Counted from the stretch's first letter, positions 14,663-56,107 are shown. The stretch: 64,000 bases of DNA from Candidatus Bathyarchaeia archaeon (GCA_038883655.1 JAVZLQ010000001.1:160001-224000); one strand, 5' to 3'. The notes: generated by a model from the sequence alone, not told the origin. Made by a program: numbers and translations.

Positions 14663-16033
14663 ATGGCGGAAATCAATAAGCTTGAAGACTTCATTTTTGA
14701 AAAGATGTCTGCAACGCATATACCAGGCTTAAGTATAGCCGCAGTCAAAGAAAATGAGACTGTATATAGCAGAGGCTTTTGTTTTAGGGATTTGGAGTAT
14801 GGACTTAGAGCTACACCAGAAACGTTGTATGGCGTAGGCTCTGTAACAAAATCTTTCACGGCGCTATCCATTATGCAACTTGCAGAAAGCGGTAAACTGA
14901 GCTTAGACGACTATGTAGACAAGTATATTCCGCTAGAACTTAAGCCGATGGGCGCTCCAGTGAAGGTATGGCATTTGCTCTGCCACGCTTCTGGTATACC
15001 CGCGCTTGCGTATGCTGAGGCTCTTATCCGCTACTTGACTGGAGCTGGCGATAAGTGGATTCCAATAGCAAGTCATGAAGACATAATCACGTTCATGAGG
15101 GAAGCCAACGAGTGGGCTTTAACCAAGCCCGGCGAAAGGTGGTTTTACCTGAACGAGGGCTACGTGATTTTGGGCTATATTATCGAGAAACTTTCTGGAA
15201 TGAACTACGAAGATTACGTTAGAGAAAAAATTCTGAAACCATTGCACATGAACCGAAGCTTCTTCAAGAAGACCGATGTTGAGGTAGACCCAAACGTTGC
15301 CGTGCCATATATAATCACGAGAGACGGCGAATGCAAAAAGTCTGTGCATCCCTACGGCGTTTATGCTGACGGCGGTCTAATAAGCAACGTTCTGGACTTA
15401 GCAAACTACATAAGGATGTATCTAAACCGTGGAAGCTACAAGGGCACAACATTAATCTCGCGTGAAGGCATCGAAGAAATGGAGAAGCCTCGCGTGCCCT
15501 TGCCGCTTCAGGTTTTCGGCGGAGAATCCTATGGTTATGGTTTGATGATTAACCCAAATTTCTTCGGCAAAAAACTTGTTGGTCATGGCGGCTCCGTTCT
15601 GGTTTACACGGCATATATTGGGTACATACCCGAGAAAAATGTTGGAATAGCTGTGCTTGCAAACGGAAGCGGCTATCCGCTTTCGCAAATTGGACTTTAC
15701 GGGCTGGCGCTTATGATTGGCGAAAATCCAGAAAACCTACCATTCATGAAATATGAGCGGACGTACGACTTGTTGACAGGGTTATACGAAACCTACAAGG
15801 AAACCATGAAGGCGCAAGTCATTAGCAAAGGCGGAATCCTACAGCTTGAAATTAAGGACAAGTACACGGATATGATTATACCGTTAATTCCAGAAGATAT
15901 AGAGGGTCAAGTAAAAAGGTTTTATGCCATCCAATCTGGTGGTAAGCTTCCAGTTGAGTTTATGGTTGAAGGAGAAAAAGTGGAACTGGTTTATGAAAGG
16001 TATAGGCTAAAGAAGGTTGGCGATTTAAAGTAG
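14663..16033 (+). CDS. Serine hydrolase of beta-lactamase/PBP fold (Pab87-like peptidase)
   Basis: SVTK (SxxK), YLN (YxN) and HGG motifs plus C-terminal domain. Confidence 0.88.
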   Translation: MAEINKLEDFIFEKMSATHIPGLSIAAVKENETVYSRGFCFRDLEYGLRATPETLYGVGSVTKSFTALSIMQLAESGKLSLDDYVDKYIPLELKPMGAPVKVWHLLCHASGIPALAYAEALIRYLTGAGDKWIPIASHEDIITFMREANEWALTKPGERWFYLNEGYVILGYIIEKLSGMNYEDYVREKILKPLHMNRSFFKKTDVEVDPNVAVPYIITRDGECKKSVHPYGVYADGGLISNVLDLANYIRMYLNRGSYKGTTLISREGIEEMEKPRVPLPLQVFGGESYGYGLMINPNFFGKKLVGHGGSVLVYTAYIGYIPEKNVGIAVLANGSGYPLSQIGLYGLALMIGENPENLPFMKYERTYDLLTGLYETYKETMKAQVISKGGILQLEIKDKYTDMIIPLIPEDIEGQVKRFYAIQSGGKLPVEFMVEGEKVELVYERYRLKKVGDLK

Positions 16034-16645
16034 CGCCGAAATGATAAACCATATCCCGAAGCCAGTTAAGATGGCAAAACAAAAACCGAAAACGGCATCG
16101 CAAACCATCTTTGTCCAAAAGCGCCTCGACTTGAAAACCGTAAGCGAAACAAAAACGTTCCAAATCAAATCGCAAGACCAGTGAACCACGGCGAACAATA
16201 AAAAGCCTATATGTCCAAAAGAGGCTGCATTCATAACCAGAAAAGCCCCGATGGTAGCCCACCACAAAAGGAAATACGGGTTTCCAGCAGTAGCCAAAAT
16301 TCCAGAAACAATCGAGCCATACTTGAGGAATGGAGATTCGCTTCCAACTTCCCTTCTGGTCTTGAGCATTTTAAACCCTAAATAAACCATTAAAATTCCG
16401 CCAACAAAACCTATGGCTTTCTGAACAAAAAGCGAGGCTAAAATCCAATTGAAACCAAGATAAATTAGAAACATTAATGGAAACTCTACAATGCCATGAC
16501 CAACAGATATTAGGACTCCGGCGTTTTTATCTCTGCTTGACTTGGCAATGGTAACCGCGAACAATGGTCCAGGCGACATAACCCCCGATAAAGATACTAG
16601 GATTACCGAGAGCAAAAAGAGGTGGAAATCCGTTATTAACTCCAT
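16025..16645 (-). CDS. LysE-family translocator
   Basis: MSPGP and NPYFLLWW motifs; about 6 TM. Confidence 0.88.
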   Translation of the reverse strand: MELITDFHLFLLSVILVSLSGVMSPGPLFAVTIAKSSRDKNAGVLISVGHGIVEFPLMFLIYLGFNWILASLFVQKAIGFVGGILMVYLGFKMLKTRREVGSESPFLKYGSIVSGILATAGNPYFLLWWATIGAFLVMNAASFGHIGFLLFAVVHWSCDLIWNVFVSLTVFKSRRFWTKMVCDAVFGFCFAILTGFGIWFIISALL

Positions 16646-16655
16646 CGTCTAGCCT

Positions 16656-17825
16656 TTATCGTTTTAGAGAGAGGATTTTTTCCTCCGCTGCCGCCAATCC
16701 AACTCCAAGCTTAATGTCGTGTCCCAAATTTTTCAATGTTGTCTCTATGGCTGCTATTGTGGAAAGAATGTCGTTTTGGCTTACATTCCCCATATGTCCA
16801 ACTCTGAAGCCCTTCCCCTTTAGCGGTCCAAGGGTGGATGCCACTGTTATCCCGCGATTTTTCATTTCGGTTCTAAACGCCGCATCCTCTACTCTTTCTG
16901 GGTAGTACACTGCCGTAACGGTGTTAGCTGCGTACTCCTCATCTGCAACCAGCTTTAGCTTTAATGCTTTCATTGCTGTTCTGAAGGCTTCGGCGAAAAC
17001 ATGGTGCCTTCTAAACCTATTCTCTAGTCCCTCGTTTAAGATTATTTCAAGCGCTTCTGATAGGGCGTAAATCATGTTAACTGGTGGTGTGGCAAAGTAT
17101 ATTGAAGGGTCTCGCATTGTTGGAAGCCAATTTTTAAGGTTGCCATACCAAAAGTTGACTGGGGTCTTTCTCTTTTCGAGAAATTCTATAACTCTTTTGC
17201 TTGCCGAAAGAAAGGCTAATCCAGGTGGGACACCTATGCACTTTTGCGAGCCAGAAGCGCAAATGTCTATGTTCCACTCGTCAACGCGAACTTCCATGCC
17301 GCCTAAAGAGCAAACTGTATCAACAATGTAGAAGGCGTCGCTCTCTTCCGCCACTATTTCGCCTATCTCCCTTATCGGGTTTGCAACTCCAGTTGAAGTC
17401 TCAACATGCGTAACAGTTACCGCCTTAAAATCGTCTTCCCTCAAAGCCTCTTTAACCATTCTTGGATTCGCGGGTTTGCCCCATGAAAACTCCAAGACTT
17501 TAGGCGTTGCACCGTGAGCCATCGACGCTTTAACAAAGTATTCCCCGAAAAATCCAGTTACTATGTTCAAAACCTTATCGTTTGGCTCCAAAACGTTCGC
17601 AACAGCCATTTCTAAAGCTAACGTTCCAGAACCAGCAACCGCGAAAACATCACCTTCAGTCATGAAAACTTTCTTTAACCGTTCAAGCGCTTCTTTGAAA
17701 ACTTCGATAAACTCAGAATCAGTATGCGAGACTGTTGGCTTACTTAGGGCGCGAAGAACCCGCGGGTCAACATTTGTTGGTCCAGGAATCATAATCAGCT
17801 TTCTTTCACTCATATTTCTACACAC
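16656..17825 (-). CDS. Class V PLP aminotransferase (alanine-glyoxylate/serine-pyruvate type)
   Basis: MIPGPT, HVETSTGV, DTVCS, GSQKC and FRVGHMG motifs. Confidence 0.92.
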   Translation of the reverse strand: MCRNMSERKLIMIPGPTNVDPRVLRALSKPTVSHTDSEFIEVFKEALERLKKVFMTEGDVFAVAGSGTLALEMAVANVLEPNDKVLNIVTGFFGEYFVKASMAHGATPKVLEFSWGKPANPRMVKEALREDDFKAVTVTHVETSTGVANPIREIGEIVAEESDAFYIVDTVCSLGGMEVRVDEWNIDICASGSQKCIGVPPGLAFLSASKRVIEFLEKRKTPVNFWYGNLKNWLPTMRDPSIYFATPPVNMIYALSEALEIILNEGLENRFRRHHVFAEAFRTAMKALKLKLVADEEYAANTVTAVYYPERVEDAAFRTEMKNRGITVASTLGPLKGKGFRVGHMGNVSQNDILSTIAAIETTLKNLGHDIKLGVGLAAAEEKILSLKR

Positions 17826-17939
17826 CCTTTTAATTCACTTCTCTGGTTTTTGTTCTTTATCTTTTCGATCTTAGGTGGATTTTCGAACCAATAGGGCTAT
17901 ATTTATAGATGCCTTTAACAATATTATAGGAGGCGTATT

Positions 17940-18209
17940 TTGTCTAAAGGTTCTAAAGCGCGAGATAAGGGTTTTCTGCGGAAGCTAAAGGACTTTTTGG
18001 TTGGAGCCACCGTTTACAACGTAATTAAGGATTTAGAAGAAAAGAGGTTACTTGTCGAGTATGGATTGATGCTTTCTGTTTTCGGGGACATGCTTGGATT
18101 TCCAACATGCTCTTATTATCGTTTAAGGTTGCTTCCACTTTGGTTACCGAGAATTGAGTTGTGGAAGCATTATTTACTCAAGGAGAAAGATGTAACAGAA
18201 AAATTGTAA
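17940..18209 (+). CDS. Small CstA/ArsA-associated protein, paralog 1
   Basis: GGAGG RBS; shares GDMLGxP..YYxLRLLP..P.I..WK..LL...DVT with the next ORF. Confidence 0.8.
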   Translation: MSKGSKARDKGFLRKLKDFLVGATVYNVIKDLEEKRLLVEYGLMLSVFGDMLGFPTCSYYRLRLLPLWLPRIELWKHYLLKEKDVTEKL

Positions 18210-18264
18210 GGTATAATAACATTTTTATCTTTAATTAAACTTTCAAATAACAAAGTGAAGAATA

Positions 18265-18564
18265 ATGACCAGAAAAGAAGCTAATGAAAAGAAAAACGAA
18301 GCGAAAAAGGAGAGCGAAGCAAAGAAAGCAGTTAAGGGACTGGTTTACGGGATGGCTATGCACGGTATGGTGAGCTACGCTCTGAAAACGCGCATGTATT
18401 TAGAAAACCTTTTTATGCTGATCACGATGGGCGACATGCTCGGCGTCCCTGTCCTTCCACCATATTATTGCCTGCGACTCCTGCCATACTGTGTTCCTCA
18501 CATAAAGACATGGAAAAGAACGTTACTTAGAGATCGAGATGTGACCGACTCAATTTTTGCTTAA
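18265..18564 (+). CDS. Small CstA/ArsA-associated protein, paralog 2
   Basis: LENLFMLITMGDMLGVPVLPPYYCLRLLP; paralog of the previous ORF. Confidence 0.85.
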   Translation: MTRKEANEKKNEAKKESEAKKAVKGLVYGMAMHGMVSYALKTRMYLENLFMLITMGDMLGVPVLPPYYCLRLLPYCVPHIKTWKRTLLRDRDVTDSIFA

Positions 18565-18576
18565 GAGGGTTAACGT

Positions 18577-19569
18577 ATGTCTGTAACATTGTCAGTTGAG
18601 CAATACTTGAAAGCACATCCGAACGTTAAGTATATTCTCTTTGGAGGAAAGGGTGGGTTAGGTAAAACAACATTATCTGCTGCAACTGCTTTTTGGCTTG
18701 CAAAGTATGGAAAAAAAGTTGTTGTTTTTTCAACGGATCCGCAAGCAAGCCTAAGCGACATTTTCGAGAGGAACATTTTCGGTAAAGGCGAAGTCGAGAT
18801 TGCCCCTAACCTCTTCGCATTGGAGATTGATGCGGATAAGCGGATAGCTGATTATCAGCAGGAAATCCGTAACAAAATTATAGAAATGTATGGTGAAGTA
18901 CCTAAAGAGGTTGATGATTACATTCAGTCTTCCGCCGCTGAACCCGCGATGGCTGAGTCAGCAACATTTGATGCTATGGTTGAGCTGATGACAAGTGGCG
19001 TTTACGACTACTATATTTTTGATATGATGCCTCATGGGCATGCAATCCGTTTTCTTGGAATGTCAGAAATACTTGATACATGGGTTAACAAAATAGTTGA
19101 GACGAGGAAGAAGGCTGCTGAGTACGGTGATGTGGCTTCTGTTTTAAGCGGAAAAGGTGGATTAGCCCAAGAGGATAAAATTTTGGAGGAACTTGAGTTC
19201 ATAAAGTCGCGGCTGGGTTTTGTCAGCAATATGATGAGGGATGAGGAACATACAGCCTTCTTTTATGTGCTCATTCCAGAACTTATGCCCATCCTTGATA
19301 CGAGAAAAGCGCTTGAAATGTTTAGGGCTTTCAGCATACCCTTAAGCGGTATTATAATAAACCAAGTTTATCCTACAGAGCTGTTGAAGCAGAAGAATCT
19401 TCCCGCGCTGTTAAAGAATAAGATATTGATGCAGCAGAGGCATATGAAGGACATTGAAACGGAGTTTGGTCCGCTGATACGTGGGGTTGTCCCGATGTTT
19501 GATCGAGAACCTAAGGGGCTCAAAATGATTGCAGAAGTAGCAAAAGCCTTGTACGGAGAGGAGCGCTAG
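18577..19569 (+). CDS. Get3/ArsA-family ATPase, copy 1
   Basis: GGKGGLGKTT, STDP and DMMPHGH motifs; single ATPase domain; no Cys. Confidence 0.92.
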   Translation: MSVTLSVEQYLKAHPNVKYILFGGKGGLGKTTLSAATAFWLAKYGKKVVVFSTDPQASLSDIFERNIFGKGEVEIAPNLFALEIDADKRIADYQQEIRNKIIEMYGEVPKEVDDYIQSSAAEPAMAESATFDAMVELMTSGVYDYYIFDMMPHGHAIRFLGMSEILDTWVNKIVETRKKAAEYGDVASVLSGKGGLAQEDKILEELEFIKSRLGFVSNMMRDEEHTAFFYVLIPELMPILDTRKALEMFRAFSIPLSGIIINQVYPTELLKQKNLPALLKNKILMQQRHMKDIETEFGPLIRGVVPMFDREPKGLKMIAEVAKALYGEER

Positions 19570-19571
19570 TT

Positions 19572-20576
19572 ATGAGTGCAAGTTTGAGTTTTAGAGAGTA
19601 TCTGGCTTCAAAGCCGCAATTGAAGTATATGTTTTTTGGTGGGAAAGGTGGGGTGGGTAAGACAATAGCTGCGGCTGGCACCGCCTACTACTTGGCGGAA
19701 AAGTTGGGTAAGAAGACTCTGATTTCATCCACAAACCCTGTTCACAGTTTATCCAGTGCTTTTGGACAAGACATTTGGGGCAAGGGAATACAAAAAATTG
19801 ATGGTACAAAGAATCTTTACGCAGTTGAAATTGACATATCTGACACCATAAAGCGATATAAGGAGGAAATCCGCGATAGAATACTCACGTTCCTCAAGTA
19901 TGCGGATATACCGCTGGATCCTGAACCATTTGTGGATATTGCAACTACAAACCCCGCATTTGAAGAATCTGCTATGTTTGATGACATGATAAATCTAATA
20001 CTTAAGGGCGAATTTGACGCTTATGTCTTTGACACAGCTCCTGTTGCACATACATATCGTCTCCTTGGAATGTCCAAGGTTTACGACTTGTGGCTCCACA
20101 AGATGGTTAAAAGCAGAGAGGAAGCCCTATCTCTTCGTGTGAAATTGTCTTTCCGAAAGGAAAAGATAATTGAAGAGATTAAGAAGGACCCGATGCTTGC
20201 CAGTTTGATGAGTATAAGAGAAAAAACCGAGCAAGGCCGTAAACTTTTGACGGATAAGGATAAAACTGCCTTCTTCTTTGTTACATTGCCACTTTCTCTC
20301 CCAATCTCGGTGATTGAGCGTTTTATAGGCTGGGTTAAAGCATTCGACATTCCAACGGGCGGGGTTATCGTAAACGAGGTTTTGCCCAAAGAGGAGTTCG
20401 ACTTGAAAAACGCAACGCCATATATTGCCAACAAGATTCAAGAGCAAGACAACTATCTTAAAATGATTCATAACAAGTTTCCGGGGATGGTTCGCGCGTA
20501 TATACCCCTATACGAAACCGAAGTAACAGGGTTAGACATGATTGCCCGTGTCGCAGAAGCCTTAAGCAAAAAATAA
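19572..20576 (+). CDS. Get3/ArsA-family ATPase, copy 2 (degenerate switch motifs)
   Basis: GGKGGVGKT, STNP (D to N) and DTAPVAH motifs; no Cys. Confidence 0.92.
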   Translation: MSASLSFREYLASKPQLKYMFFGGKGGVGKTIAAAGTAYYLAEKLGKKTLISSTNPVHSLSSAFGQDIWGKGIQKIDGTKNLYAVEIDISDTIKRYKEEIRDRILTFLKYADIPLDPEPFVDIATTNPAFEESAMFDDMINLILKGEFDAYVFDTAPVAHTYRLLGMSKVYDLWLHKMVKSREEALSLRVKLSFRKEKIIEEIKKDPMLASLMSIREKTEQGRKLLTDKDKTAFFFVTLPLSLPISVIERFIGWVKAFDIPTGGVIVNEVLPKEEFDLKNATPYIANKIQEQDNYLKMIHNKFPGMVRAYIPLYETEVTGLDMIARVAEALSKK

Positions 20577-20592
20577 AAGGGGAGAAAAAGGC

Positions 20593-22278
20593 TTAAGCAG
20601 TTTTTCCCTCTGTTTTTGCTGCTCTCAGTCTCTTGAAGGCTTTAGCTCCCTCGTAGCACATGAAAAGCCCAAGTATTAATAAGAAAACGTTAACTAACGC
20701 TGCAATTAAGCTACCAAATTTTGTTGGGTCTATGATATACCCGCTTATGCCAGTATATGTAAGGTATGCCAGTGCTGATAATGTGGTTGCCAACATGAAA
20801 AGCATCGGTATCAACGTATAGATTGTGGGACGTTTTTCTTTTGTAAGCCACAGCGATATTATCATTAAAGCTAGTCCAGCCATGAGCTGATTAGCACCGC
20901 CGAATGTTCCCCAGATGTACTGGAAAGCTGCACCTACATGCGGACTTGTTATTATGTAAACAATTATGCAAACTAAAATGGCGCTAAGATATTTGTTTTT
21001 CAAAGCACCTCCGGCCCTTAGTCCACTTAAATCGGATAGCACCAACCGAGTAATCCTCAGACCTATATGCATAATTGTTATTGCTAGCACGATCAGCATG
21101 ACCGATGCTAGTCCCTGACCCGCTGCTGTTGGTATCCCTAAGAATCCTAAAATTGTGGTTGCGCCAGTAACAAAAGAACCTGCGGGGTCGCCTACGTTAT
21201 TTGTGGTTGCAGGGTTTAAAATCGCAACGGTTGTCAGAGCTACTAACGCCAGTATTCCTTCAGCTAACATAGCGCCGCCGCCTATGAAATGGGCATCCGG
21301 TTCGGTGTCAAGCTGTTTAGATGTAACCGAAGAACCTATTAGACTGTGCCACCCCGAGATTGCTCCACAAGCAACCGTTATAAACATCATCGGCCATAGC
21401 GGGCCGCTCTTTGTTATACCTGGGTCATAGAACGCCGTTGCTAGTGAATATTGGTAGTTGGGTGCACCGATAAAGGCGCCTATTATGATTCCTATTACTC
21501 CAGCGTACACTAGGTAGAACGAGAGATAGTTGATGGGTTGTATAAAAACCCATATTGGTAATACAGCGCCAAGAAAACAGAAGAACAGCGTTATAAACAT
21601 CCAGAAGTCGAGCGCATTTGGAAATGGACCTGATGAAGGGAGAGGCGCGGTGTATGGCAAAGCTATTCCAGCCCAGATTCCTAGAAATATGATGATCACA
21701 GCGATTACGGTTGTATAAACAATGTTAACTTTAAATTTGTATGTTAGGAAACCGGCTATTACACCAATTACTGTTACAATTAACACGGGTATCGGGCTTA
21801 CGGGAAACCTTAGGAATAGGCGTGCTACCTGGTTGGTGAATGATGACAGTATTAAGATGACATACCATAAGATGTACCATAACAAAATTGTTCGAGCCCT
21901 CGGAGAGATCAACTCGTAAGTTATCGGTCCGAAAGATGATCCCTCAGATCTGGCTGAAACCATTAGGCTTCCATAATCATGAATCCAGCCGATGAATATT
22001 GTCCCGAAGATAATCCACAAAAGTGCTGGAAGCCATCCCCATTGAAGTGCTATAATTGGCCCGAGAACTGGTCCTAGGGCTGCTATACTTTTCCACTGGA
22101 ACCCGAATAGGACGTATTTGTTTGTTGGGAAGAATTCAACGCCATCCATGTATGTGTGCGCTGGCGTTTCCCTTTTAGGGTCTGACATTATAACGTTTCT
22201 GTCGAACCACTTTATGTAGCCCCAGTAGGCGATTGCATAAAGAATTATTCCCACCAGAATAACGATTATTGAAAGCAA
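20593..22278 (-). CDS. cstA: Carbon starvation protein A (CstA)-family transporter
   Basis: TPAHTYMDGVEFFPT, GPVLGP, WGWLPALLW, ITVACGAISGWHSL and FGGANQL motifs; many TM. Confidence 0.93.
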   Translation of the reverse strand: MLSIIVILVGIILYAIAYWGYIKWFDRNVIMSDPKRETPAHTYMDGVEFFPTNKYVLFGFQWKSIAALGPVLGPIIALQWGWLPALLWIIFGTIFIGWIHDYGSLMVSARSEGSSFGPITYELISPRARTILLWYILWYVILILSSFTNQVARLFLRFPVSPIPVLIVTVIGVIAGFLTYKFKVNIVYTTVIAVIIIFLGIWAGIALPYTAPLPSSGPFPNALDFWMFITLFFCFLGAVLPIWVFIQPINYLSFYLVYAGVIGIIIGAFIGAPNYQYSLATAFYDPGITKSGPLWPMMFITVACGAISGWHSLIGSSVTSKQLDTEPDAHFIGGGAMLAEGILALVALTTVAILNPATTNNVGDPAGSFVTGATTILGFLGIPTAAGQGLASVMLIVLAITIMHIGLRITRLVLSDLSGLRAGGALKNKYLSAILVCIIVYIITSPHVGAAFQYIWGTFGGANQLMAGLALMIISLWLTKEKRPTIYTLIPMLFMLATTLSALAYLTYTGISGYIIDPTKFGSLIAALVNVFLLILGLFMCYEGAKAFKRLRAAKTEGKTA

Positions 22279-22368
22279 TGTTATCCCTCAGAAAATTGTA
22301 TGTAATGGCTATCTTAATATAAGACTTGCGATAAAACTACATTTTAAAATCTAAAGTTCAATCGGTCC

Positions 22369-23046
22369 GTGGGATCGGATGTGTACGAGTTTACAGCAAT
22401 ATTTCTCGTAGCATTAATCTTCATAATAGTATACTTCATTGGGATGCGCCAGAACAGGAAAATTGCGGTGAGATACGCGAAAGCCGTTAAGGCGTATATG
22501 TCTTCTCGCAGCGATTTTGTAGGTTTTCGTCCCTATAGCCGGGGTGGATTCCGAGCACTTTGTAAAATGAAGGAGGATTCACCATTCTCGCAAGTTGAAA
22601 TGGCAATAAGCCTCGTTGACCGCGAAAACCTGATGCACTATCCACTTTCTCTGCTGACAAAGGACAGCGACCGGTTTGCATGTTGGGGTTTTCTAAAAAC
22701 TCCATTATCACTTAATATGGAGATTTTGCCAGTAAAAGAGGAGAAAATCTGCCGAAAAATAGCATCTGAAAAAGGCCTTGAAACAGTAAACTTAAAGGGT
22801 GAATTTAATGAGTCTTTCGCAGTTCTAGCTTCAAATCACGAGTTTGCGCATAAATTTCTATCAGACCGACAATTACAAAGATGCATTCTGGAAATGAAAG
22901 CTTCTCTTAAACGCTTATCCCTAAATGAGAAAGAATCAAGAATATACCTTTTAGGCGACCTAAAAGAAGAGTCCTCAATAGAATCCTTTATAGACATTAT
23001 AATGTTTTGCGGAGAGCATTGCAGAAAAATAAGCTACATTAGTTGA
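22369..23046 (+). CDS. Single-TM membrane protein resembling CCDC47/DUF1682
   Basis: TM followed by YFIGMRQNRKIA, FVG and LVDRENL..DSD blocks; by-eye similarity only. Confidence 0.65.
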   Translation: MGSDVYEFTAIFLVALIFIIVYFIGMRQNRKIAVRYAKAVKAYMSSRSDFVGFRPYSRGGFRALCKMKEDSPFSQVEMAISLVDRENLMHYPLSLLTKDSDRFACWGFLKTPLSLNMEILPVKEEKICRKIASEKGLETVNLKGEFNESFAVLASNHEFAHKFLSDRQLQRCILEMKASLKRLSLNEKESRIYLLGDLKEESSIESFIDIIMFCGEHCRKISYIS

Positions 23047-23555
23047 ATGAACTTTTTTTGCATTTCTATTATTGCTTTGCTATCTTTGGCTTTTGCGTAG
23101 CTTTCAAGTCTTTCCTTGTTTATTTCGATGAATGTGTATCCCCACTTGAAAATTGACAAAAGTCTATACGCTTCTTCTTTGAAGCTCGCAATGTAAAGTG
23201 CAGCCGCTAGAGCTTCAACTGTGCTAAGCTTTGTTGGGCTTCCGAAGTTTACTGGGTTTCCAGCAACTAGATATGGCAAGCAGCGTGATGTCCCCCTAAC
23301 ACTCTTTATTAGGGGTTTCTCTGCATGTTCCCAGCTAAAGTCTAACGCGGCTAATCCAAACTTTTCTATGCGCTTCTTGTCGGCTGGAGAAAAGGCGATT
23401 TCTGAAAAAGGATTCAAGACCACAGCACTTTTTGGCAGAAACCTAATTTTATGCACTATTTCAACTAACCCGTGACGTTTAAGCTTCAGCGCGGTGCATT
23501 TTTTGGGGTCGCACTGTCTGGCGTGATAAACAACTATCCTAACTTGTTTTTGCAA
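23034..23555 (-). CDS. tsr3: 16S rRNA aminocarboxypropyltransferase
   Basis: QCDPKKCTALKL, LPYLVAGNPVNFG, KLSTVEALAAAL and FKWG motifs. Confidence 0.95.
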   Translation of the reverse strand: MQKQVRIVVYHARQCDPKKCTALKLKRHGLVEIVHKIRFLPKSAVVLNPFSEIAFSPADKKRIEKFGLAALDFSWEHAEKPLIKSVRGTSRCLPYLVAGNPVNFGSPTKLSTVEALAAALYIASFKEEAYRLLSIFKWGYTFIEINKERLESYAKAKDSKAIIEMQKKFIQLM

Positions 23556-31182: not shown

Positions 31183-34086
31183 ATGGAATTTTTAAATAAA
31201 ACCGAAGAAAAATGGCAAAAGCGCTGGGATGAAGCCAAAATTTTCGAGGCAAACCCAGACCCAGCTAAGCCAAAATACTTCATAACTGTGGCTTACCCAT
31301 ACCCAAACTCACCTCAACACATTGGACACGCAAGAACCTACACATTGGCTGACGTACACGCGAGATACATGCGAATGCGCGGCTACAACGTGTTATTGCC
31401 AATGGCTTTCCACTACACTGGCACGCCAGTCCTAGCAATGGCGAAACGCCTAGCAGAAAACGATGAAGAACTAATCAAAGACTTCGTTGAAGTCTACAAA
31501 ATCCCAAAGGAAAAACTAACGGAGTTAACTGACCCATTAAACATGGCGCACTATTTTCACGAAGAAATCAAGGAAGGAATGAAAAGAATAGGGTTTTCCA
31601 TAGACTGGAGGCGTGAGTTCACAACAATAGACCCGCAATATAACCGTTTCATAGAGTGGCAATTCGAAAAACTACGTGAAAAAGGTTACATAACCCGCGG
31701 AAGCCACCCAGTCGGCTGGTGCCCAAGATGCGGCAACCCAGTCGGTCAACATGACACCGTCGGCGACGTGGAGCCAGAAATAGGCGAGTTCACACTAATA
31801 AAATTCAAACAAGGCGAGACCATCTTTCCAACGGCGACGCTTCGCCCAGAAACAGTTTTCGGCGTAACAAACATTTGGGTAAATCCAAAAGCCAAATACG
31901 TAAAAGCCATTGTTGACGGCGAAGAATGGGTTGTAAGCCAAGAAGCTGCAGAAAAACTCACCTATCTAAACCACAAAGTCAAAGTCCTCGAAACATTTGA
32001 AGGAAAAAGTCTAATCGGCGCTTATGTCGAAAACCCAGCAACAAAAAACAAAATCATAATACTTCCAGCAGAATTCGTTGACCCAAAAAACGCCACGGGC
32101 GTCGTTATGTCGGTTCCGGGGCACGCTCCATATGACCTAGTTGCACTTGAAAACATCAAAAAAGCTCCTGAAATACTAAAGGAATATGGCATAAAACAAG
32201 AAGAAGTCAAAGCCATAAAGCCAATCTCGCTCATTGAAGTGCCCGACTACTCGGAAATTCCAGCAGCGGACGTCGTAAAAAAGATGGGCATCCAAAACCA
32301 GACAGACCCGAAACTTGAGGACGCCACAAAAGAGGTTTACCGCCATGAGTTTCACAATGGAAGAATGAAAAGCAACACTGGCAAATATTATGGCTTAACG
32401 GTGGCTGAAGCAAAAGACAAGGTTAAACAAGACTTGGTGGCAGAGGGCAAAGCAACAACAATGTACGAGCTCCTAAACAGACCAGTAAAATGCCGATGTG
32501 GAACAGAATGCATCGTAAAAATATTCGAAGACCAGTGGTTTATAGACTACGGAAACCCACAATGGAAAGTTTTAGCCCACAAAAACCTCGAAAAAATGGA
32601 AATCCTACCAGAAGAAAAACGCAAAGAATACGAAAACGTCATAGACTGGCTACATGAAAAGGCATGCGCCAGAAAGTCGGGCATGGGCACAAGGCTTCCA
32701 TGGGACAAGAACTGGATAATCGAGTCCCTATCAGACTCAACAATCTACATGGCATACTATACCATAGCAAGACACATAAAAGAAGAAAAGATAGACGCAT
32801 CCCAGCTAACAGATGAGGTCTTCGACTACGTCTTTCTCGGAAAAGGAAGCGCTAAAGAAATAGCAGAAAAAATAGGGCTAAAGCAAGAAACATTAGAAAA
32901 AATGCGAAACGAGTTCTTATACTTTTACCCACTCGACAGCCGCCACTCAGCACACGAGCTAATCCCAAACCACCTAACATTCATGATCTTCAACCACACG
33001 GCAATATTCCCAGAAAACCTTTGGCCACGCCAAATAGTGACAAACGGCCATGTGTTAATGCAAGGCGCAAAAATGAGCAAATCCTTCGGAAACATAATAC
33101 CACTACGCGAAGGACTAGAAAAATACGGGGCAGACCCAATAAGACTAAGCGTTTTAGGCACGGCAGAACTGCTACAAGACGCTGACTTCAGCCCATCAGT
33201 TGCAAGAGCCATGCGCGAAAGACTAGAACGTATACACAAGTTTGTCACAAACTTCATCAAAGAAAAGCGTGAACAAAGAAAAACAAGCTATTCTACGATT
33301 GACAAGTGGATGCTTAGCCGAATGCAATGGCACATTAAAAGGACAACAGAAGCCATGGAAAAACTAGCCGTGCGAAAAGCCATACAAATCATCTTATATG
33401 AGCTAGACCAGGATGTTCAATGGTACCAAAGGCGTAAAACAGCTGCGGAAAATGGTGCAGCATCCCACGTTATCGGTGAAATTCTAAAAGCCCAAATAAG
33501 AATGCTTGCGCCAGTAGCCCCACACATTTGCGAGGAGCTATGGGAAATGCTTGGCGGAAAAGGCTTCGTTTCAATGGCTAGCTGGCCGACACCAGATGAG
33601 TCTAAAATAGACATTGAAGCAGAAGAAAAAGAAAACCTAATCATGAGCGTCCTAGAAGACACGTGCAACATTGTAAGAGCCACGGGCATGACACCAACGA
33701 AGGTATACTATTACACCGCTGCTCCGTGGAAATGGCAAATATACCAAAAAACTCTGAAAAAATCGGTCGGCGCAAAAATTTCACAAAAAGACTTGATGAA
33801 AGAGCTGATGGCGGACACCCAACTAAAAGCAAAAGCAGAAAGAGTTGCAAAATTCCTCAACCAAATACTGGACGACGTCAACCGCATGCCAGAAGAAAGA
33901 AAACAAAGGCTAATGCAAATCAAAGAAATAGACGAACACCAAACACTAAAAAGTGCTGAAAAATTCTTCAGAAAAGAACTAAAAGCCGAAATATACATAT
34001 ACAATGAAGAAGACCCAGAATGCTACGACCCCAAAAAGCGGGCACAACAAGCAAAACCATTCAGACCAGCAATCTACATAGAATAA
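31183..34086 (+). CDS. leuS: Leucine--tRNA ligase (archaeal type)
   Basis: YPYPN, HIGH, ATLRPET and KMSKS motifs. Confidence 0.97.
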   Translation: MEFLNKTEEKWQKRWDEAKIFEANPDPAKPKYFITVAYPYPNSPQHIGHARTYTLADVHARYMRMRGYNVLLPMAFHYTGTPVLAMAKRLAENDEELIKDFVEVYKIPKEKLTELTDPLNMAHYFHEEIKEGMKRIGFSIDWRREFTTIDPQYNRFIEWQFEKLREKGYITRGSHPVGWCPRCGNPVGQHDTVGDVEPEIGEFTLIKFKQGETIFPTATLRPETVFGVTNIWVNPKAKYVKAIVDGEEWVVSQEAAEKLTYLNHKVKVLETFEGKSLIGAYVENPATKNKIIILPAEFVDPKNATGVVMSVPGHAPYDLVALENIKKAPEILKEYGIKQEEVKAIKPISLIEVPDYSEIPAADVVKKMGIQNQTDPKLEDATKEVYRHEFHNGRMKSNTGKYYGLTVAEAKDKVKQDLVAEGKATTMYELLNRPVKCRCGTECIVKIFEDQWFIDYGNPQWKVLAHKNLEKMEILPEEKRKEYENVIDWLHEKACARKSGMGTRLPWDKNWIIESLSDSTIYMAYYTIARHIKEEKIDASQLTDEVFDYVFLGKGSAKEIAEKIGLKQETLEKMRNEFLYFYPLDSRHSAHELIPNHLTFMIFNHTAIFPENLWPRQIVTNGHVLMQGAKMSKSFGNIIPLREGLEKYGADPIRLSVLGTAELLQDADFSPSVARAMRERLERIHKFVTNFIKEKREQRKTSYSTIDKWMLSRMQWHIKRTTEAMEKLAVRKAIQIILYELDQDVQWYQRRKTAAENGAASHVIGEILKAQIRMLAPVAPHICEELWEMLGGKGFVSMASWPTPDESKIDIEAEEKENLIMSVLEDTCNIVRATGMTPTKVYYYTAAPWKWQIYQKTLKKSVGAKISQKDLMKELMADTQLKAKAERVAKFLNQILDDVNRMPEERKQRLMQIKEIDEHQTLKSAEKFFRKELKAEIYIYNEEDPECYDPKKRAQQAKPFRPAIYIE

Positions 34087-34129: not shown

Positions 34130-34222
34130 GGGCCCGTGGCGCAGCATGGATAGAAAAGCCAACCCAAAAAGCGCGTCGGCCTTCTAAGCCGGAGATCCCG
34201 GGTTCAAATCCCGGCGGGCCCG
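34130..34222 (+). tRNA. tRNA-Arg(TCT) with 18-nt D-loop intron (about 34152-34169)
   Basis: Acceptor GGGCCCG/CGGGCCC, D-stem GCGC/GCGC, anticodon arm TCGGC-CT TCT AA-GCCGG, T arm CCGGG TTCAAAT CCCGG; 18 extra nt in the D-loop. Confidence 0.92.
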
Positions 34223-43941: not shown

Positions 43942-44359
43942 ACCCGCCATATGATGGTTAGGTTATACCTTGTAGTAAAATCTGCGACGTGTACCGTCAG
44001 GTAATTCACCAAGGGAGCAGTTGAAGCAAGACCATTAAGTGCAGAACTAGCCGCTAAAAGGCTACATATAACTTTTAAAGATTATTGCTTATGTTTGTAA
44101 TTTTGTGCTGAAAATTCTTATTTTTCTCTACTTTTTTCGTTAACTTCAGGTGAGAGAACACCATGACTCAAAGTCATAGCAAGTCACTTCATAAGGACCA
44201 GCAGAAATGTCAAAAGCAAGATTTTCCAATAAAAAGGTTATCAATTGCTCATGCATCATCATCTAAACAACCATTCATAAGACAATACCCTTATTTTTAA
44301 AAGTTAACATGATTTGAGCTTTTCTCCATTTGACAGTTTAATCCTTATGTGAGATTTAG

Positions 44360-44444
44360 TGCGGGGGGTGGGATTTGAACCCACGAACCCCTACGGGACA
44401 AGGTCCTAAGCCTTGCGCCTTTGACCAGGCTTGGCGACCCCCGC
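44360..44444 (-). tRNA. tRNA-Leu(TAG)
   Basis: GCGGGGG/CCCCCGC acceptor, CAAGG-CT TAG GA-CCTTG anticodon arm, long variable arm, GTGGG TTCAAAT CCCAC T arm. Confidence 0.96.
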
Positions 44445-44511
44445 CCTTTTCAAGTGCTATCTTTTGCATATTAAGAATAATAAAATTATTTGTTTTCGTC
44501 TTTGTGTGTCG

Positions 44512-44526
44512 CGAAATCTTTTAAAA
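44512..44526 (+). promoter_or_regulatory. Putative BRE/TATA promoter of tRNA-Thr
   Basis: CGAAA followed by TTTTAAAA about 25 nt upstream of the tRNA 5' end. Confidence 0.45.
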
Positions 44527-44550
44527 AATATGATGTGTATACTTGTTTGG

Positions 44551-44646
44551 GCCTCGGTAGCTCAGCCTGGTGGAGCATCGCCTTGGTAAGGCGGTGGTCG
44601 CGGGTTCAAATCCCGCCCGAGAACCGCCGTGTGCGGTCGGGAAGCT
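44551..44646 (+). tRNA. tRNA-Thr(GGT) with 22-nt BHB intron at 70/71 (44622-44643); integration target
   Basis: GCCTCGG pairs with CCGAG|GC only after intron removal; anticodon arm TCGCC-TT GGT AA-GGCGG; discriminator T. Confidence 0.9.
44578..44627 (+). repeat. attL (3' half of tRNA-Thr plus intron start)
   Basis: Identical to 49420-49469; similarity continues to about 44657/49499. Confidence 0.95.
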
Positions 44647-44826
44647 TTGGTTTGAACCCGCCTTGCCGCCGTTAGTGTTGTTTAGGGCGTTTTGGATGTT
44701 TAGGTTTGAGAGGTGGGCGATTGCTTGTTTTAGGGCGTTTTCTGTGAATTGTGAGATGTTTATGCCTAATTCTTTAGCTTTTTTGACTGTTTCGGCGTCT
44801 ATTGAAAGGGTTAGTTTTGTTTTCAC
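44578..44826 (-). CDS. Integrase N-terminal fragment int(N), with RHH-like domain
   Basis: GTG start after GGTGA; KTKLTLSID..AKELGINISQFTENAL; reads through att in frame with int(C). In the integrated state the ORF runs on to a stop at 44521. Confidence 0.85.
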
Positions 44827-44870
44827 GTTCTCACCTACACGTATATTCACGTATGACAAATATTTACCAT

Positions 44871-45017
44871 TCACTCTTTTTTTTCTGTTTCGATGAGTTT
44901 GGCGATGGCGTATTCTATGGCGTGACTTCTATTAGCAAAGCGTAGTTTCTGCACTTGGTCATCTATCCATTTAACGAAGTCTTCTCTTATGGTTACGTAA
45001 ACTCTTATTTTTGGCAT
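44871..45017 (-). CDS. CopG/ribbon-helix-helix protein (48 aa, not in ORF track)
   Basis: Hand translation: MPKIRVYVTIREDFVKWIDDQVQKLRFANRSHAIEYAIAKLIETEKKE. Confidence 0.85.
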   Translation of the reverse strand: MPKIRVYVTIREDFVKWIDDQVQKLRFANRSHAIEYAIAKLIETEKKE

Positions 45018-45139
45018 TTCAACCATTCTTTTTTACCTTCCCATATGAGTAGTTTATCCACAACTATACTCAAATATACACAAATCTTATAGATTTTCCG
45101 TTCAAAAATAGGATTTGCCTTTAAGGTGAGTGTGAGAAA

Positions 45140-45358
45140 ATGGAAAAGACGGAAATCAGCTTCTTTGGAAAGAGAAAGTGGCATATTCCCAGAAAATATA
45201 TTGTGGTTTCAAAGCGTCTTTGCAGCAGAGAGTTTAAGAAGTTGAGGCAATGGTTAGACGATAAAGACAGAATAGAGATAGGCACGGATTCAGAAGGGCG
45301 AATTTGGATTTTAAACGAAACCAAAGTTGGAGAGCATTTAAAAAGACAAAATAATTAA
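45140..45358 (+). CDS. Element hypothetical protein (72 aa)
   Basis: GGTGA upstream; basic protein; no recognised family. Confidence 0.55.
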   Translation: MEKTEISFFGKRKWHIPRKYIVVSKRLCSREFKKLRQWLDDKDRIEIGTDSEGRIWILNETKVGEHLKRQNN

Positions 45359-45368
45359 GCGCTATTGC

Positions 45369-45749
45369 CTATTTGCCTTCCAGCTTCCCCTTTTTCTTGT
45401 CAAGAGAACTCTTATTAATTGGAATTTCCGAAGGACTGAAATTTAACAGTCTTGATAATGGCAGGTCTGCAATATCAAATTCTTGAACAAAAGTTTTAAG
45501 ATGTCGTGCAAGTTGCAGAACATCTGCTTCTGGACTGTAATAATAGGGTTGAAATTTATGTCTCAAAATTAATCCTTTATTGATGAGTTTGTTTATACTT
45601 CTGGTTAAAAGTCTGTTGAAGGTATCCTCAGAATAAAACTCTTTAAATTTCGGATAAACAGCATTAAAGATTTCTTTTCGAGATTGCCATTCAGAGCATT
45701 TTTTCAAATATTCTCGTATTGCGTTTTCTATGTTGTCCATTATGGACAT
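45369..45749 (-). CDS. Winged-helix-like protein
   Basis: IREYL..SRKEIFNAV..LTRSINKLINKGLI pattern. Confidence 0.6.
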   Translation of the reverse strand: MSIMDNIENAIREYLKKCSEWQSRKEIFNAVYPKFKEFYSEDTFNRLLTRSINKLINKGLILRHKFQPYYYSPEADVLQLARHLKTFVQEFDIADLPLSRLLNFSPSEIPINKSSLDKKKGKLEGK

Positions 45750-45796
45750 ATCTGACTGAATGACAATTTAAGACTTACTGACAAAGGTGTGTAAAC

Positions 45797-45949
45797 ATGG
45801 AAAAAGTTAGAATAAGCGTAAGAATTGATGGAGAAGACTTCAAAAGAATCCAGGAAACCATAAAGAAGGCGTATCCGACTTTACGGTCTATTTCAGACGT
45901 GGTTCGCCAAGCTCTGAAAGAGTTTTTAATAAAATATGAAAGTGTGTGA
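45797..45949 (+). CDS. Ribbon-helix-helix protein (50 aa, not in ORF track)
   Basis: Hand translation: MEKVRISVRIDGEDFKRIQETIKKAYPTLRSISDVVRQALKEFLIKYESV. Confidence 0.82.
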   Translation: MEKVRISVRIDGEDFKRIQETIKKAYPTLRSISDVVRQALKEFLIKYESV

Positions 45950-46136
45950 GTGTATGTGTGTGTATTATAGAATGTCTGTCTTGTCTTTCTTCTTTTCTTC
46001 TTTCTTCTTTACCCCTAATATACATATACATACACACATACACACTAAACACACACCTTCACTAAGAAAGCAAGTTAAGCGGCGGCGAAGCTCTGCTTCT
46101 TTTCCCATAATACACACACTCACACATACACACACC
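45942..46136. repeat. TG/CA-rich imperfect inverted repeat around a pyrimidine tract; candidate origin
   Basis: gtgtgtgtattat (45956-45968) is the reverse complement of ataatacacacac (46107-46119); TTCT tract and further CA runs lie between. Confidence 0.7.
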
Positions 46137-46143
46137 CTTAAAG

Positions 46144-56106: not shown

Positions 56107-56107
56107 T

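What the first reader, a model, noticed from the sequence alone, without database searches (positions are those of the whole stretch)
17940..23046. Candidate undescribed system: 2 small proteins, 2 Get3/ArsA ATPases, CstA transporter and CCDC47-like protein
Seen: a four-gene + strand cluster (two small paralogs, two ATPase paralogs) converges on cstA with a 16-bp gap. cstA shares a 90-bp divergent intergenic region with a single-TM protein. No arsB, acr3, arsC, arsD or arsR is in the window. Known: Get3/TRC40 delivers TM helices, ArsA energises a secondary carrier, and CstA proteins are pyruvate/peptide carriers. Inference: either an ATPase-coupled or ATPase-regulated CstA transporter (ArsAB-like logic, not for arsenic), or a dedicated insertion/chaperone module for a large multipass protein, using archaeal relatives of two eukaryotic ER biogenesis factors.
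Basis: partly seen in the sequence, partly recalled or inferred. Interest (0 to 1): 0.85.

Follow-up and report, generated by a model that had tools for sequence, protein, structure and literature searches.

The report
CstA carrier with Get3-like ATPase pair
This is a widely conserved but never tested gene cluster, first noted in 2010, that joins a CstA-type membrane carrier to two Get3/ArsA-like ATPases, two small helical proteins and a single-pass protein with the fold of the eukaryotic ER factor CCDC47.

Summary

The linkage is not chance. In 79 loci from other genomes the order small protein, ATPase-1, ATPase-2 is kept. cstA lies within 5 kb in 22 of 22 archaeal and 13 of 15 bacterial loci that have 5 kb on both sides.

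The system is not undescribed. Castillo and Saier (2010, PMC2963123) reported ArsA homologues clustered with CstA, CstX (~90 aa) and archaeal CstY (~210 aa), and proposed that the ATPase energises CstA. I found no experimental work.

- The ATPases form two ancient paralogous lineages. One has an invariant switch-I Asp and the other an invariant Asn.
- CstX is Pfam DUF7990 and is homologous to NCBIfam cory-CC-star.
- CstY has the CCDC47/TtfA fold and also occurs in Asgard and Chloroflexota loci.

Best reading is an ATPase-coupled or ATPase-gated CstA carrier. A dedicated assembly module remains a live rival.

The parts
17898..17933 (+). Candidate archaeal promoter and ribosome-binding region: an A/T box (tatatttata, 17898-17907) about 32 bp upstream of the start codon, and aggagg (17928-17933) 6 bp upstream of the TTG start
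   Evidence: Read directly from the sequence. Its function is inferred and was not tested.
17940..18209 (+). cstX-1: small helical protein (89 aa), the divergent paralog of cstX-2, DUF7990 family
   Evidence: ORF. It is 33% identical to cstX-2. It has a weak NF041419 hit, E 0.0035. A second small paralog is present in 31 of 42 archaeal and 24 of 37 bacterial loci.
18265..18564 (+). cstX-2: small helical-hairpin protein (99 aa), DUF7990 / CstX family, always immediately upstream of ATPase-1
   Evidence: 460 homologs were found, with precomputed Pfam PF25952, which the Atlas names DUF7990. All 52 of 52 family members hit NF041419 below its cut-off. hhalign against actinobacterial CC-star proteins gives probability 95.4%. 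The AF2 model has helices at 3-59, 66-87 and 90-98, pLDDT 80.
18577..19569 (+). ATPase-1: Get3/ArsA-family deviant-Walker-A ATPase (330 aa) with a canonical switch-I Asp (STDPQASL); the presumed catalytic subunit
   Evidence: PF02374 at 235 bits and TIGR00345 at 228 bits. The best PDB sequence match is archaeal Get3 3ug6, E 4e-64. Asp is invariant in 71 of 71 orthologs, window included. The orthologs form one side of a branch with support 97.
19572..20576 (+). ATPase-2: paralogous Get3/ArsA-family subunit (334 aa) with an intact P-loop but switch-I Asn (STNPVHSL); presumed to bind nucleotide but to be hydrolysis-impaired
   Evidence: PF02374 at 214 bits. Asn is invariant in 66 of 66 orthologs, window included. 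The orthologs form one side of a branch with support 99, and the subclades mirror those of ATPase-1. The start is 2 bp after the ATPase-1 stop.
20593..22278 (-). cstA: CstA-family multipass carrier (561 aa), the only cstA in this genome
   Evidence: PF02554 at 405 bits, and NF011590 (pyruvate/proton symporter CstA) at 206 bits, far below its 1188-bit cut-off. It is the single copy in the genome. There are many hydrophobic segments. No chain in the PDB matches by sequence.
22279..22368 (.). 90-bp divergent intergenic region between cstA and cstY, with A/T-rich boxes
   Evidence: Sequence read. A promoter role is inferred only.
22369..23046 (+). cstY: single-pass membrane protein (225 aa). An N-terminal TM helix is followed by a basic stretch and a cytoplasmic alpha/beta domain with the CCDC47/TtfA fold.
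   Evidence: The AF2 model has pLDDT 94.5 and pTM 0.88. Foldseek PDB top hits are 7tm3_4 (E 3.8e-9, TMq 0.71), 9i78_4 (named CCDC47), 6w6l_7, then TtfA 6t84. The Atlas structure search gives TM 0.83 to a eukaryotic CCDC47 cluster. The PF07946 score is 25.4 bits, below the 27.7 cut-off. A CstY profile finds the gene in 22 of 22 archaeal loci with 5 kb on both sides.

Best explanation
The locus encodes one membrane machine built around the CstA-family secondary carrier.

Proposed mechanism:
- Two Get3/ArsA-like ATPases form an asymmetric heterodimer on the cytoplasmic face. ATPase-1 keeps the switch-I Asp. ATPase-2 has Asn at that position, so it probably binds but barely hydrolyses ATP.
- The CstX hairpin proteins tether and couple the dimer to CstA.
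- CstY, a single-pass protein with a CCDC47/TtfA-type cytoplasmic domain, is a further accessory subunit.
- ATP-driven closing and opening of the dimer drives or gates substrate movement through CstA. The substrate is probably a small carboxylate such as pyruvate, or peptides. This is the same logic by which ArsA turns the carrier ArsB into an ATP-driven pump.

Shown: gene content, conservation of the cluster, the two ATPase lineages with the Asp/Asn split, the folds and the homologies.

Inferred: every physical contact, the heterodimer, the direction and substrate of transport, and the coupling itself.
For: 1. Conserved linkage. In 79 loci found through CstX, the order CstX, ATPase-1, ATPase-2 is kept. 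Two ATPases are present in 34 of 35 archaeal and 31 of 31 bacterial loci with enough downstream DNA. cstA is within 5 kb in 22 of 22 archaeal and 13 of 15 bacterial loci with 5 kb on both sides.
2. The four genomes checked whose locus showed no cstA next to the cluster (for L077 the locus is only 1.1 kb) each carry a cstA elsewhere, 4 of 4.
3. A third architecture in Actinomycetota keeps the same partners: cstA, a CC-star small protein, then one ATPase, in 12 of 12 loci fetched.
4. CstA is the constant element while the accessory set varies, as expected for subunits of a carrier.
5. The ATPase paralogs are two ancient lineages with mirrored subclades (support 97 and 99). Switch I is Asp in 71 of 71 and Asn in 66 of 66.
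6. The same ATPase family has a precedent for energising a secondary carrier (ArsA with ArsB; established knowledge, also summarised in PMC2963123). That paper reports congruent CstA, ArsA and CstX trees.
7. No ArsB, Acr3 or ArsD is found in the genome, and neither ATPase contains any cysteine. The ATPases therefore do not serve arsenite.
8. The closest bacterial structure to CstY, TtfA, is described as an accessory protein in a complex with the transporter MmpL3 (PMC6593404, abstract seen in the listing; fold match).
9. One database protein (P0126, a 213-aa fragment) joins a CstA C-terminus directly to a CstX. Two others (P0121, P0348) are CstX-CstX tandem fusions.
Against: 1. There is no experimental evidence of any kind, and no RNA data.
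2. The ATPases are closer to archaeal Get3 (3ug6, E 4e-64 over the full length) than to E. coli ArsA (E 2e-31, N-terminal part only). They keep a Get3-length insert in the helical subdomain.
3. A published survey classes single-domain archaeal and bacterial homologues that lack CxxC but have the TRC40-insert as probable tail-anchor chaperones (PMC6593721, passages read).
4. They are the only Get3/ArsA-family genes in this genome, so a general targeting role cannot be excluded.
5. CstY's best-studied relative, CCDC47, is a membrane-protein biogenesis factor.
6. CstX is only marginally hydrophobic (KD19 maximum 1.41; 25 of 52 family members reach 1.6). Its membrane location is therefore uncertain.
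7. In 2 of 15 well-flanked bacterial loci cstA is not adjacent.
8. The loci are the best CstX hits, not a random sample. They were sorted into archaea or bacteria by record title, and some bins may be wrong.
Confidence: 0.5

Rival explanations
1. Dedicated biogenesis or assembly module. The Get3-like heterodimer captures the hydrophobic CstX hairpins, or CstA segments, in its groove and delivers them to the membrane. The CCDC47-like CstY then helps assemble the multipass CstA complex. This would be a prokaryotic GET/PAT-like pathway with one client.
For: - Both ATPases align over their full length with archaeal Get3 structures (E 4e-64 and 2e-52) and keep the helical-subdomain insert.
- Get3-like proteins without CxxC are predicted chaperones in PMC6593721.
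- CstY has the CCDC47 fold.
- cstX-2 sits directly upstream of ATPase-1 in every locus.
- CstX with the two ATPases can occur without an adjacent cstA (L069, L082).
Against: - A whole ATPase pair devoted to a single carrier has no precedent I know of.
- The cluster is absent from most cstA-bearing organisms. In the control genomes, E. coli and B. subtilis carry cstA but gave no CstX-family match over the cut-off.
- The CstX C-terminal tail is highly charged, which is unfavourable for tail-anchor translocation (sequence).
- The insert region is less Met-rich and less hydrophobic than in the archaeal Get3 alignments (by eye).
- The bacterial relative TtfA is an accessory protein of a transporter, not an insertase.
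Confidence: 0.2
2. Regulatory switch rather than motor. The asymmetric ATPase dimer senses the nucleotide state, for example the ATP/ADP ratio under carbon limitation. Through CstX it opens or locks CstA, which continues to run on the proton gradient.
For: - One site of the dimer is degenerate (Asn in 66 of 66). Degenerate sites are typical of slow switch-like ATPases in this superfamily (recalled general knowledge).
- CstA relatives work as proton symporters without any ATPase (NCBIfam name).
- The actinobacterial form manages with one ATPase gene.
Against: Sequence data cannot separate this from the best explanation. The only characterised carrier partnership in the family, ArsA with ArsB, is energising rather than regulatory (established knowledge).
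Confidence: 0.2
3. CstX plus the ATPase pair is a self-contained module with a function of its own, for example general tail-anchor targeting. CstA and CstY would be frequent neighbours without a physical link.
For: - The order CstX, ATPase-1, ATPase-2 is invariant, while the position and strand of cstA vary.
- These are the only Get3-family genes in the genome.
Against: - cstA is within 5 kb in 35 of 37 well-flanked loci across many phyla.
- All four genomes checked whose locus showed no adjacent cstA still carry one.
- The actinobacterial variant again pairs the small protein and the ATPase with cstA, 12 of 12.
- Castillo and Saier report CstX never occurring without CstA.
Confidence: 0.07

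Closest known systems
ArsA-homologue / CstA / CstX / CstY gene clusters of Castillo and Saier 2010 (PMC2963123)
   Same: Same composition: ~330-aa single-domain ArsA homologues, a CstA carrier, a ~90-aa CstX (sometimes two paralogs), a ~210-aa single-TMS CstY in archaea, and no ars genes. Same proposed logic: the ATPase energises CstA and CstX acts as the linker.
   Different: That paper noted adjacent ATPase pairs in only two organisms and did not describe two lineages with an Asp/Asn split. It called CstY archaeal only and gave it no fold or relatives. Here the pair is the rule, CstY is CCDC47/TtfA-like, and CstY also occurs in Chloroflexota. I could not see the paper's supplements.
ArsAB arsenite pump (E. 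coli ArsA with ArsB)
   Same: An ATPase of the same family is attached to a secondary carrier. A pseudo-symmetric dimer has two non-equivalent nucleotide sites (established knowledge).
   Different: - Two separate genes here, instead of one fused A1-A2 protein.
- No cysteines at all, so no metalloid site.
- The TIGR04291 scores of 112 and 103 bits are far below its 650-bit cut-off.
- The carrier is CstA, not ArsB or Acr3, and both of those are missing from the genome.
Archaeal Get3 (M. jannaschii 3ug6, M. thermautotrophicus 3zq6) and the GET pathway
   Same: These are the best solved relatives, with full-length alignment. They share the P-loop, switch I, switch II and a helical-subdomain insert of similar length.
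   Different: - The CxxC zinc motif of both archaeal structures is replaced by a longer Cys-free segment.
- The proteins are predicted to form a heterodimer, with one switch-I Asn.
- The genes are locked to cstA and cstX.
CCDC47 (PAT complex / multipass translocon) and mycobacterial TtfA (MmpL3 accessory factor)
   Same: CstY shares the single TM helix followed by a cytoplasmic alpha/beta domain (Foldseek E 3.8e-9 to 1.3e-4; Atlas TM 0.83). Like TtfA, it is encoded with or works beside a multipass transporter.
   Different: CstY lacks the luminal N-terminal domain and the long C-terminal coiled coil of CCDC47; the PDB chains are 290-371 residues long against 225 for CstY. The sequence signal is marginal (25.4 bits against a 27.7 cut-off). 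Asgard copies are not closer to the CCDC47 profile than the others: 1 weak hit among the 5 Asgard or Asgard-like copies scanned.
NCBIfam NF041419 cory-CC-star protein / Pfam DUF7990
   Same: CstX is homologous. All 52 of 52 members hit the model, and hhalign gives probability 95.4%. The actinobacterial proteins sit between cstA and an ArsA-like ATPase, 12 of 12.
   Different: Window CstX-2 scores 31 bits against an 80-bit cut-off, so it is not an equivalog. It has no C-terminal Cys-Cys. The actinobacterial clusters have a single ATPase with Asp and no CstY.
E. coli-type CstA/BtsT with YbdD/YjiX (PF04328)
   Same: A CstA-family carrier with a small protein encoded beside it. The actinobacterial CstX relatives share the terminal Cys-Cys.
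   Different: No detectable homology. hhalign aligns only the two terminal cysteines (probability 0.6%), and 0 of 52 CstX members hit PF04328. These systems have no ATPase.

Membership tests
CstA-CstX-CstY-ArsA cluster (Castillo and Saier 2010) | Single-domain (~330 aa) ArsA homologue(s) encoded next to cstA | tested here: met
   ATPases of 330 and 334 aa lie 16 bp from cstA.
CstA-CstX-CstY-ArsA cluster (Castillo and Saier 2010) | ~90-aa CstX and ~210-aa single-TMS CstY in the cluster, with no ars genes | tested here: met
   Small proteins of 89 and 99 aa and a 225-aa protein with one TM segment are present. ArsB, Acr3 and ArsD were not found in the genome.
ArsA (arsenical pump-driving ATPase) | Fused A1-A2 protein of ~580 aa scoring over the TIGR04291 cut-off | tested here: not met
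   There are two separate ~330-aa proteins. TIGR04291 scores are 112 and 103 bits against a 650-bit cut-off.
ArsA (arsenical pump-driving ATPase) | Metalloid-binding cysteines and an ArsB or Acr3 partner | tested here: not met
   Neither ATPase contains a cysteine (sequences). No ArsB or Acr3 is in the genome. The role of the cysteines is recalled and is also stated in PMC2963123.
Get3/TRC40 | Deviant Walker A P-loop and switch-I catalytic Asp | tested here: inconclusive
   The P-loop GKGG[LV]GKT is present in both proteins. The Asp is present in ATPase-1 (71 of 71) but is Asn in ATPase-2 (66 of 66). That the Asp-to-Asn change blocks hydrolysis in yeast Get3 is recalled, not tested.
Get3/TRC40 | CxxC zinc motif at the dimer interface | tested here: not met
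   The aligned archaeal Get3 chains have the motif. ATPase-1 and ATPase-2 have a Cys-free, longer segment there.
Get3/TRC40 | Hydrophobic client groove with the TRC40-insert, and binding of tail-anchored clients | tested here: inconclusive
   An insert of Get3-like length is present, but by eye it is less Met-rich. Client binding cannot be tested with these tools.
CCDC47 (PF07946) | Pfam score over the gathering cut-off | tested here: not met
   The window protein scores 25.4 bits against 27.7, over residues 10-58 only. 16 of 31 family members hit at E <= 0.01, best 2.2e-8.
CCDC47 (PF07946) | Single TM helix followed by the cytosolic globular domain (fold) | tested here: met
   Foldseek top three PDB hits are chains of CCDC47-containing entries, with TMq 0.57-0.71. 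Chain 9i78_4 is named CCDC47; the identity of the other two chains is recalled. The Atlas model gives TM 0.83 over 223 residues.
CCDC47 (PF07946) | Luminal N-terminal domain, C-terminal coiled coil, and partnership with Asterix, the ribosome and Sec61 | tested here: not met
   Only about 7 residues precede the TM helix, and the protein ends after one helix at 202-224. The partnerships are not testable here. The feature list itself is recalled.
NF041419 cory-CC-star | Score over the 80-bit cut-off and a C-terminal Cys-Cys | tested here: not met
   Scores are 31.4 and 17.3 bits. The window proteins end in ...SIFA and ...TEKL. Homology itself is supported.
CstA (PF02554) | Pfam score over the cut-off across the carrier domain | tested here: met
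   405 bits against 27, in two stretches covering profile positions 2-370 and 409-560. It is not an equivalog of E. coli CstA: NF011590 scores 206 bits against a 1188-bit cut-off.

The most novel reading that the evidence does not exclude
CstY is a true prokaryotic homolog, and possibly the forerunner, of eukaryotic CCDC47. With the Get3-like heterodimer and the CstX hairpins it forms an ancient GET/PAT-like assembly machine whose client is a multipass carrier. On this reading two pillars of ER membrane-protein biogenesis were already working together in archaea, Asgard lineages included, and in Chloroflexota.
Probability: 0.12. Interest if true: 0.85.

Novelty: new member of a known kind. Interest (0 to 1): 0.5.

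Why it matters
- The cluster is widespread. At least 589 matches to CstX were found in a collection of one genome per species, across many archaeal and bacterial phyla. It has nevertheless never been tested at the bench.
- If the ATPase pair drives CstA, this is a second, arsenic-independent case of a Get3/ArsA ATPase converting a secondary carrier into a primary pump. It would change how CstA-type nutrient uptake is viewed in low-energy anaerobes.
- The invariant Asp/Asn split gives a ready-made pair of mutants for testing asymmetric catalysis.
- CstY, TtfA and CCDC47 share a fold. This links a eukaryotic ER factor to prokaryotic transporter accessory proteins and makes the origin of CCDC47 experimentally approachable.

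Tried and rejected
1. YbdD/YjiX link. I suspected that CstX and CC-star proteins were distant relatives of the small CstA-associated PF04328 proteins. This was rejected: 0 of 52 CstX members hit PF04328, and hhalign aligned only the terminal Cys-Cys (probability 0.6% and 0.2%).

2. Asgard CstY closer to CCDC47? Not supported. Only 1 of the 5 Asgard or Asgard-like copies scanned gave a weak PF07946 hit, E 0.0024.

3. CstX fold search in the PDB found no match.

4. Complex prediction with ATPase-1 + ATPase-2 + 2 ATP + CstX-2 as partner returned the verdict 'no answer'. The median score was 0.58. Controls with the partner replaced scored 0.00 and 0.00, but the control with ATPase-2 replaced scored 0.57. 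This is not used as evidence either way.

5. Fusions. A 'longer' search found only two long forms and no full-length CstA-CstX or ATPase-CstX fusion. P0126 is a single fragment, and its N-terminus is cut.

6. The look-up of sequencing runs listed no RNA holder.

7. Literature.
- Searches for cory-CC-star and PF25952 found 0 papers each.
- CstX found only the 2010 paper as relevant.
- CstA+Get3 found nothing relevant.
- 'carbon starvation protein' + 'anion-transporting ATPase' + operon found 0.
- CCDC47+TtfA found 0.
- CCDC47+archaea found 15 papers. The passages I read in two of them do not mention archaeal CCDC47 homologs.
- DUF7990 had 0 occurrences in the 15 papers listed of 39.
- Subscription journals and supplements were not searchable, so 'no experimental work' means none in this library.

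Full report
**What is there.**
- Four lie on the plus strand with short spacers (55, 12 and 2 bp): two small proteins of 89 and 99 aa, then two ATPases of 330 and 334 aa.
- cstA (561 aa) converges on them with a 16-bp gap.
- cstA shares a 90-bp divergent spacer with a 225-aa protein that has one strongly hydrophobic N-terminal segment.
- The small proteins are paralogs (33% identity, E 3e-16). So are the ATPases (37%, E 8e-69).
- Both ATPases match PF02374 and TIGR00345 well above their cut-offs, and the arsenical-pump model TIGR04291 far below its cut-off.
- An A/T box and an aggagg motif precede the first gene. A promoter role is inferred only.

**The genome.** It is 1.42 Mb in 19 contigs and 93% complete. 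The closest loci are titled Bathyarchaeia MAGs. These two genes are its only full-length Get3/ArsA-family members, and this is its only cstA. ArsB, Acr3 and ArsD were not found.

**Is the linkage real?**
The best 80 were returned as 79 distinct loci.
- I searched these with nine window proteins by tblastn and counted genes. I sorted loci into archaea (42) and bacteria (37) by record title.
- Two ATPases follow CstX in 34 of 35 archaeal and 31 of 31 bacterial loci with at least 2.3 kb downstream, always in the order CstX, ATPase-1, ATPase-2.
- cstA lies within 5 kb in 22 of 22 archaeal and 13 of 15 bacterial loci that have 5 kb on both sides.
- The four genomes I checked whose locus showed no adjacent cstA (one of those loci, L077, is only 1.1 kb long) each have a cstA elsewhere (4 of 4).
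- Caveats: the loci are the best hits to CstX, not a random sample, and MAG labels may be wrong.

**It is already in print.** Castillo and Saier (Int J Microbiol 2010, PMC2963123) used SEED to find 26 cases of ArsA homologues clustered with cstA. I read passages around the search terms.
- 24 of the 26 cases had a ~90-aa 'CstX', and five archaea had a ~210-aa single-TMS 'CstY'.
- They reported congruent trees and no ars genes.
- They proposed that the ATPase energises CstA and that CstX is the coupler.
- They saw adjacent ATPase pairs in two organisms and noted that the SxD aspartate 'can be substituted only by N'.
- I found no later or experimental work in the library.

- Among ORFs of 300-400 aa (70 of 78 ATPase-1-type and 65 of 69 ATPase-2-type, plus the window copies), switch I reads S[TV]DPQASL with Asp in 71 of 71, and S[TL]NPVHSL with Asn in 66 of 66.
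- In a quick maximum-likelihood tree of 57 + 57 paired sequences plus 12 actinobacterial ones, each paralog forms one side of a branch (SH-aLRT 97 and 99). The internal subclades mirror each other.
- The duplication is therefore old, and the two proteins have travelled together, as expected for an obligate heterodimer.
- The equivalent Asp-to-Asn change in yeast Get3 is, from memory, a hydrolysis-dead, ATP-trapping mutation. I therefore read ATPase-2 as a nucleotide-binding but poorly hydrolysing partner.
- Neither protein has any cysteine.
- Their best solved relatives are archaeal Get3 proteins (3ug6 at 4e-64, 3zq6 at 1e-60). E. coli ArsA follows at 2e-31, over the N-terminal part only.
- The alignments show that the archaeal Get3 CxxC is replaced by a longer Cys-free segment. 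The helical-subdomain insert is kept in length but looks less Met-rich.
- A survey of Get3-like proteins classes CxxC-less single-domain homologues with the TRC40-insert as likely tail-anchor chaperones. It does not mention this gene context (PMC6593721, passages read).

**CstX.**
- The family has 460 close database hits carrying precomputed PF25952, which the Atlas names DUF7990. A full HMMER scan found 313 representative clusters.
- It is strikingly conserved, at 53-61% identity between the window protein and the bacterial copies.
- All 52 of 52 diverse members hit NCBIfam NF041419 (cory-CC-star) below its cut-off.
- In a sample of 301 Actinomycetota genomes, 17 had a match over the cut-off. 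In all 12 regions I fetched, the small Cys-Cys-ending protein lies between cstA and one ArsA-like ATPase that carries the switch-I Asp.
- Profile comparison of CstX with these proteins gives probability 95.4%, E 1.9e-8.
- The AF2 model is a long helix (3-59), a Pro-rich loop and a second helix (66-87), with pLDDT 80. Hydrophobicity is marginal for a membrane span.
- One database fragment fuses a CstA C-terminus to CstX, and two proteins are CstX-CstX tandems.

**CstY.**
- With a 31-sequence alignment the AF2 model is confident: pLDDT 94.5, pTM 0.88. It has a TM helix running into a long helix, then a mixed alpha/beta domain and a C-terminal helix.
- The best Foldseek PDB hits are 7tm3_4 (E 3.8e-9, TMq 0.71), 9i78_4 (3.8e-8) and 6w6l_7 (1.9e-6). 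Next comes the mycobacterial MmpL3 accessory factor TtfA (6t84, 1.3e-4).
- Chain 9i78_4 is named CCDC47. That the other two chains are CCDC47 is my recollection.
- Independently, the ESM Atlas model of the same protein aligns to a eukaryotic CCDC47 cluster at TM 0.83 over 223 residues and to a Heimdallarchaeota-rich cluster at 0.84.
- The sequence signal is marginal. The window protein scores 25.4 bits against a 27.7 cut-off. 16 of 31 members hit PF07946 at E <= 0.01, and 8 of 31 hit DUF3137.
- CstY is not archaeal only. Chloroflexota loci carry a homolog between cstA and cstX on the other strand (hhalign probability 97.4%, E 1e-11).
- A profile built from both sets finds CstY in 44 of 91 loci. 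That is 22 of 22 archaeal and 9 of 15 bacterial loci with 5 kb on both sides. It finds none in the 12 actinobacterial regions. The counts include the training sequences.
- No paper in the library names CCDC47 and TtfA together.

**Mechanism.**
- The constant element across all three architectures is CstA. The three are: two ATPases + CstX + CstY; two ATPases + CstX; one ATPase + CC-star.
- The accessory set varies, which fits accessory subunits of a carrier better than a general targeting pathway.
- The family precedent is ArsA with ArsB, and the bacterial fold relative of CstY is a transporter accessory protein.
- I therefore favour an ATPase-coupled or ATPase-gated CstA carrier (0.5).
- The Get3-like character of the ATPases and the CCDC47 fold keep a dedicated assembly module alive (0.2). 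A pure nucleotide-sensing switch is equally possible (0.2).
- Every physical contact is inferred. The one complex-prediction job gave no verdict and is reported only under Tried and rejected.

**Verdict.** The system is a new (Bathyarchaeia-like) member of a kind described by comparative genomics in 2010 and still untested. The Asp/Asn heterodimer rule, the DUF7990 / CC-star identity of CstX, and the CCDC47/TtfA fold and wider range of CstY are the useful additions.

Noticed in passing
window 44359-49416: Divergent tRNA-Leu and tRNA-Thr genes (44359-44625) border a low-GC stretch (GC 0.32-0.38 against about 0.43 elsewhere). The stretch contains an ORF matching the archaeal phage integrase family (48586-49416, PF16795, E 3.7e-9). 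This is probably an integrated element.
   Followed up: partly
window 34170-34214: A borderline tRNA-like Rfam match (29.1 bits against a gathering score of 29, partial model 9-63) lies just downstream of the leucyl-tRNA-synthetase-like gene (31183-34086). ARAGORN did not call it.
   Followed up: no
L116-L127 (unnamed Actinomycetota genomes): A third architecture of the system: cstA, then an ~88-aa protein ending in Cys-Cys (NF041419 over its cut-off), then a single ArsA-like ATPase with the switch-I Asp. There is no second ATPase and no CstY, in 12 of 12 regions.
   Followed up: yes
P0126, P0121, P0348 (database proteins): P0126 is a 213-aa fragment in which the last CstA helices run straight into a CstX. 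P0121 and P0348 are tandem CstX-CstX fusions, in opposite order. Their frequency could not be checked because the listing of cluster members was off.
   Followed up: partly
window 23034-23046: The 3' end of cstY overlaps the 3' end of the convergent Tsr3-like ribosome-biogenesis gene (23034-23555, PF04034) by 13 bp. This neighbour recurs only in the closest Bathyarchaeia loci.
   Followed up: no
window 16025-17825: A class-V aminotransferase (PF00266 match) and a multi-TM ORF that I labelled LysE-like without a family search lie upstream on the minus strand. Both are syntenic with the cluster in close relatives only (about 6-9 loci) and so are probably not part of the system.
   Followed up: partly
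window 50397-57358: A minus-strand run of genes for two alpha/beta hydrolases, an AMP-binding enzyme and a KAS-III-like protein lies beside branched-chain-type ABC transporter genes.
   Followed up: no
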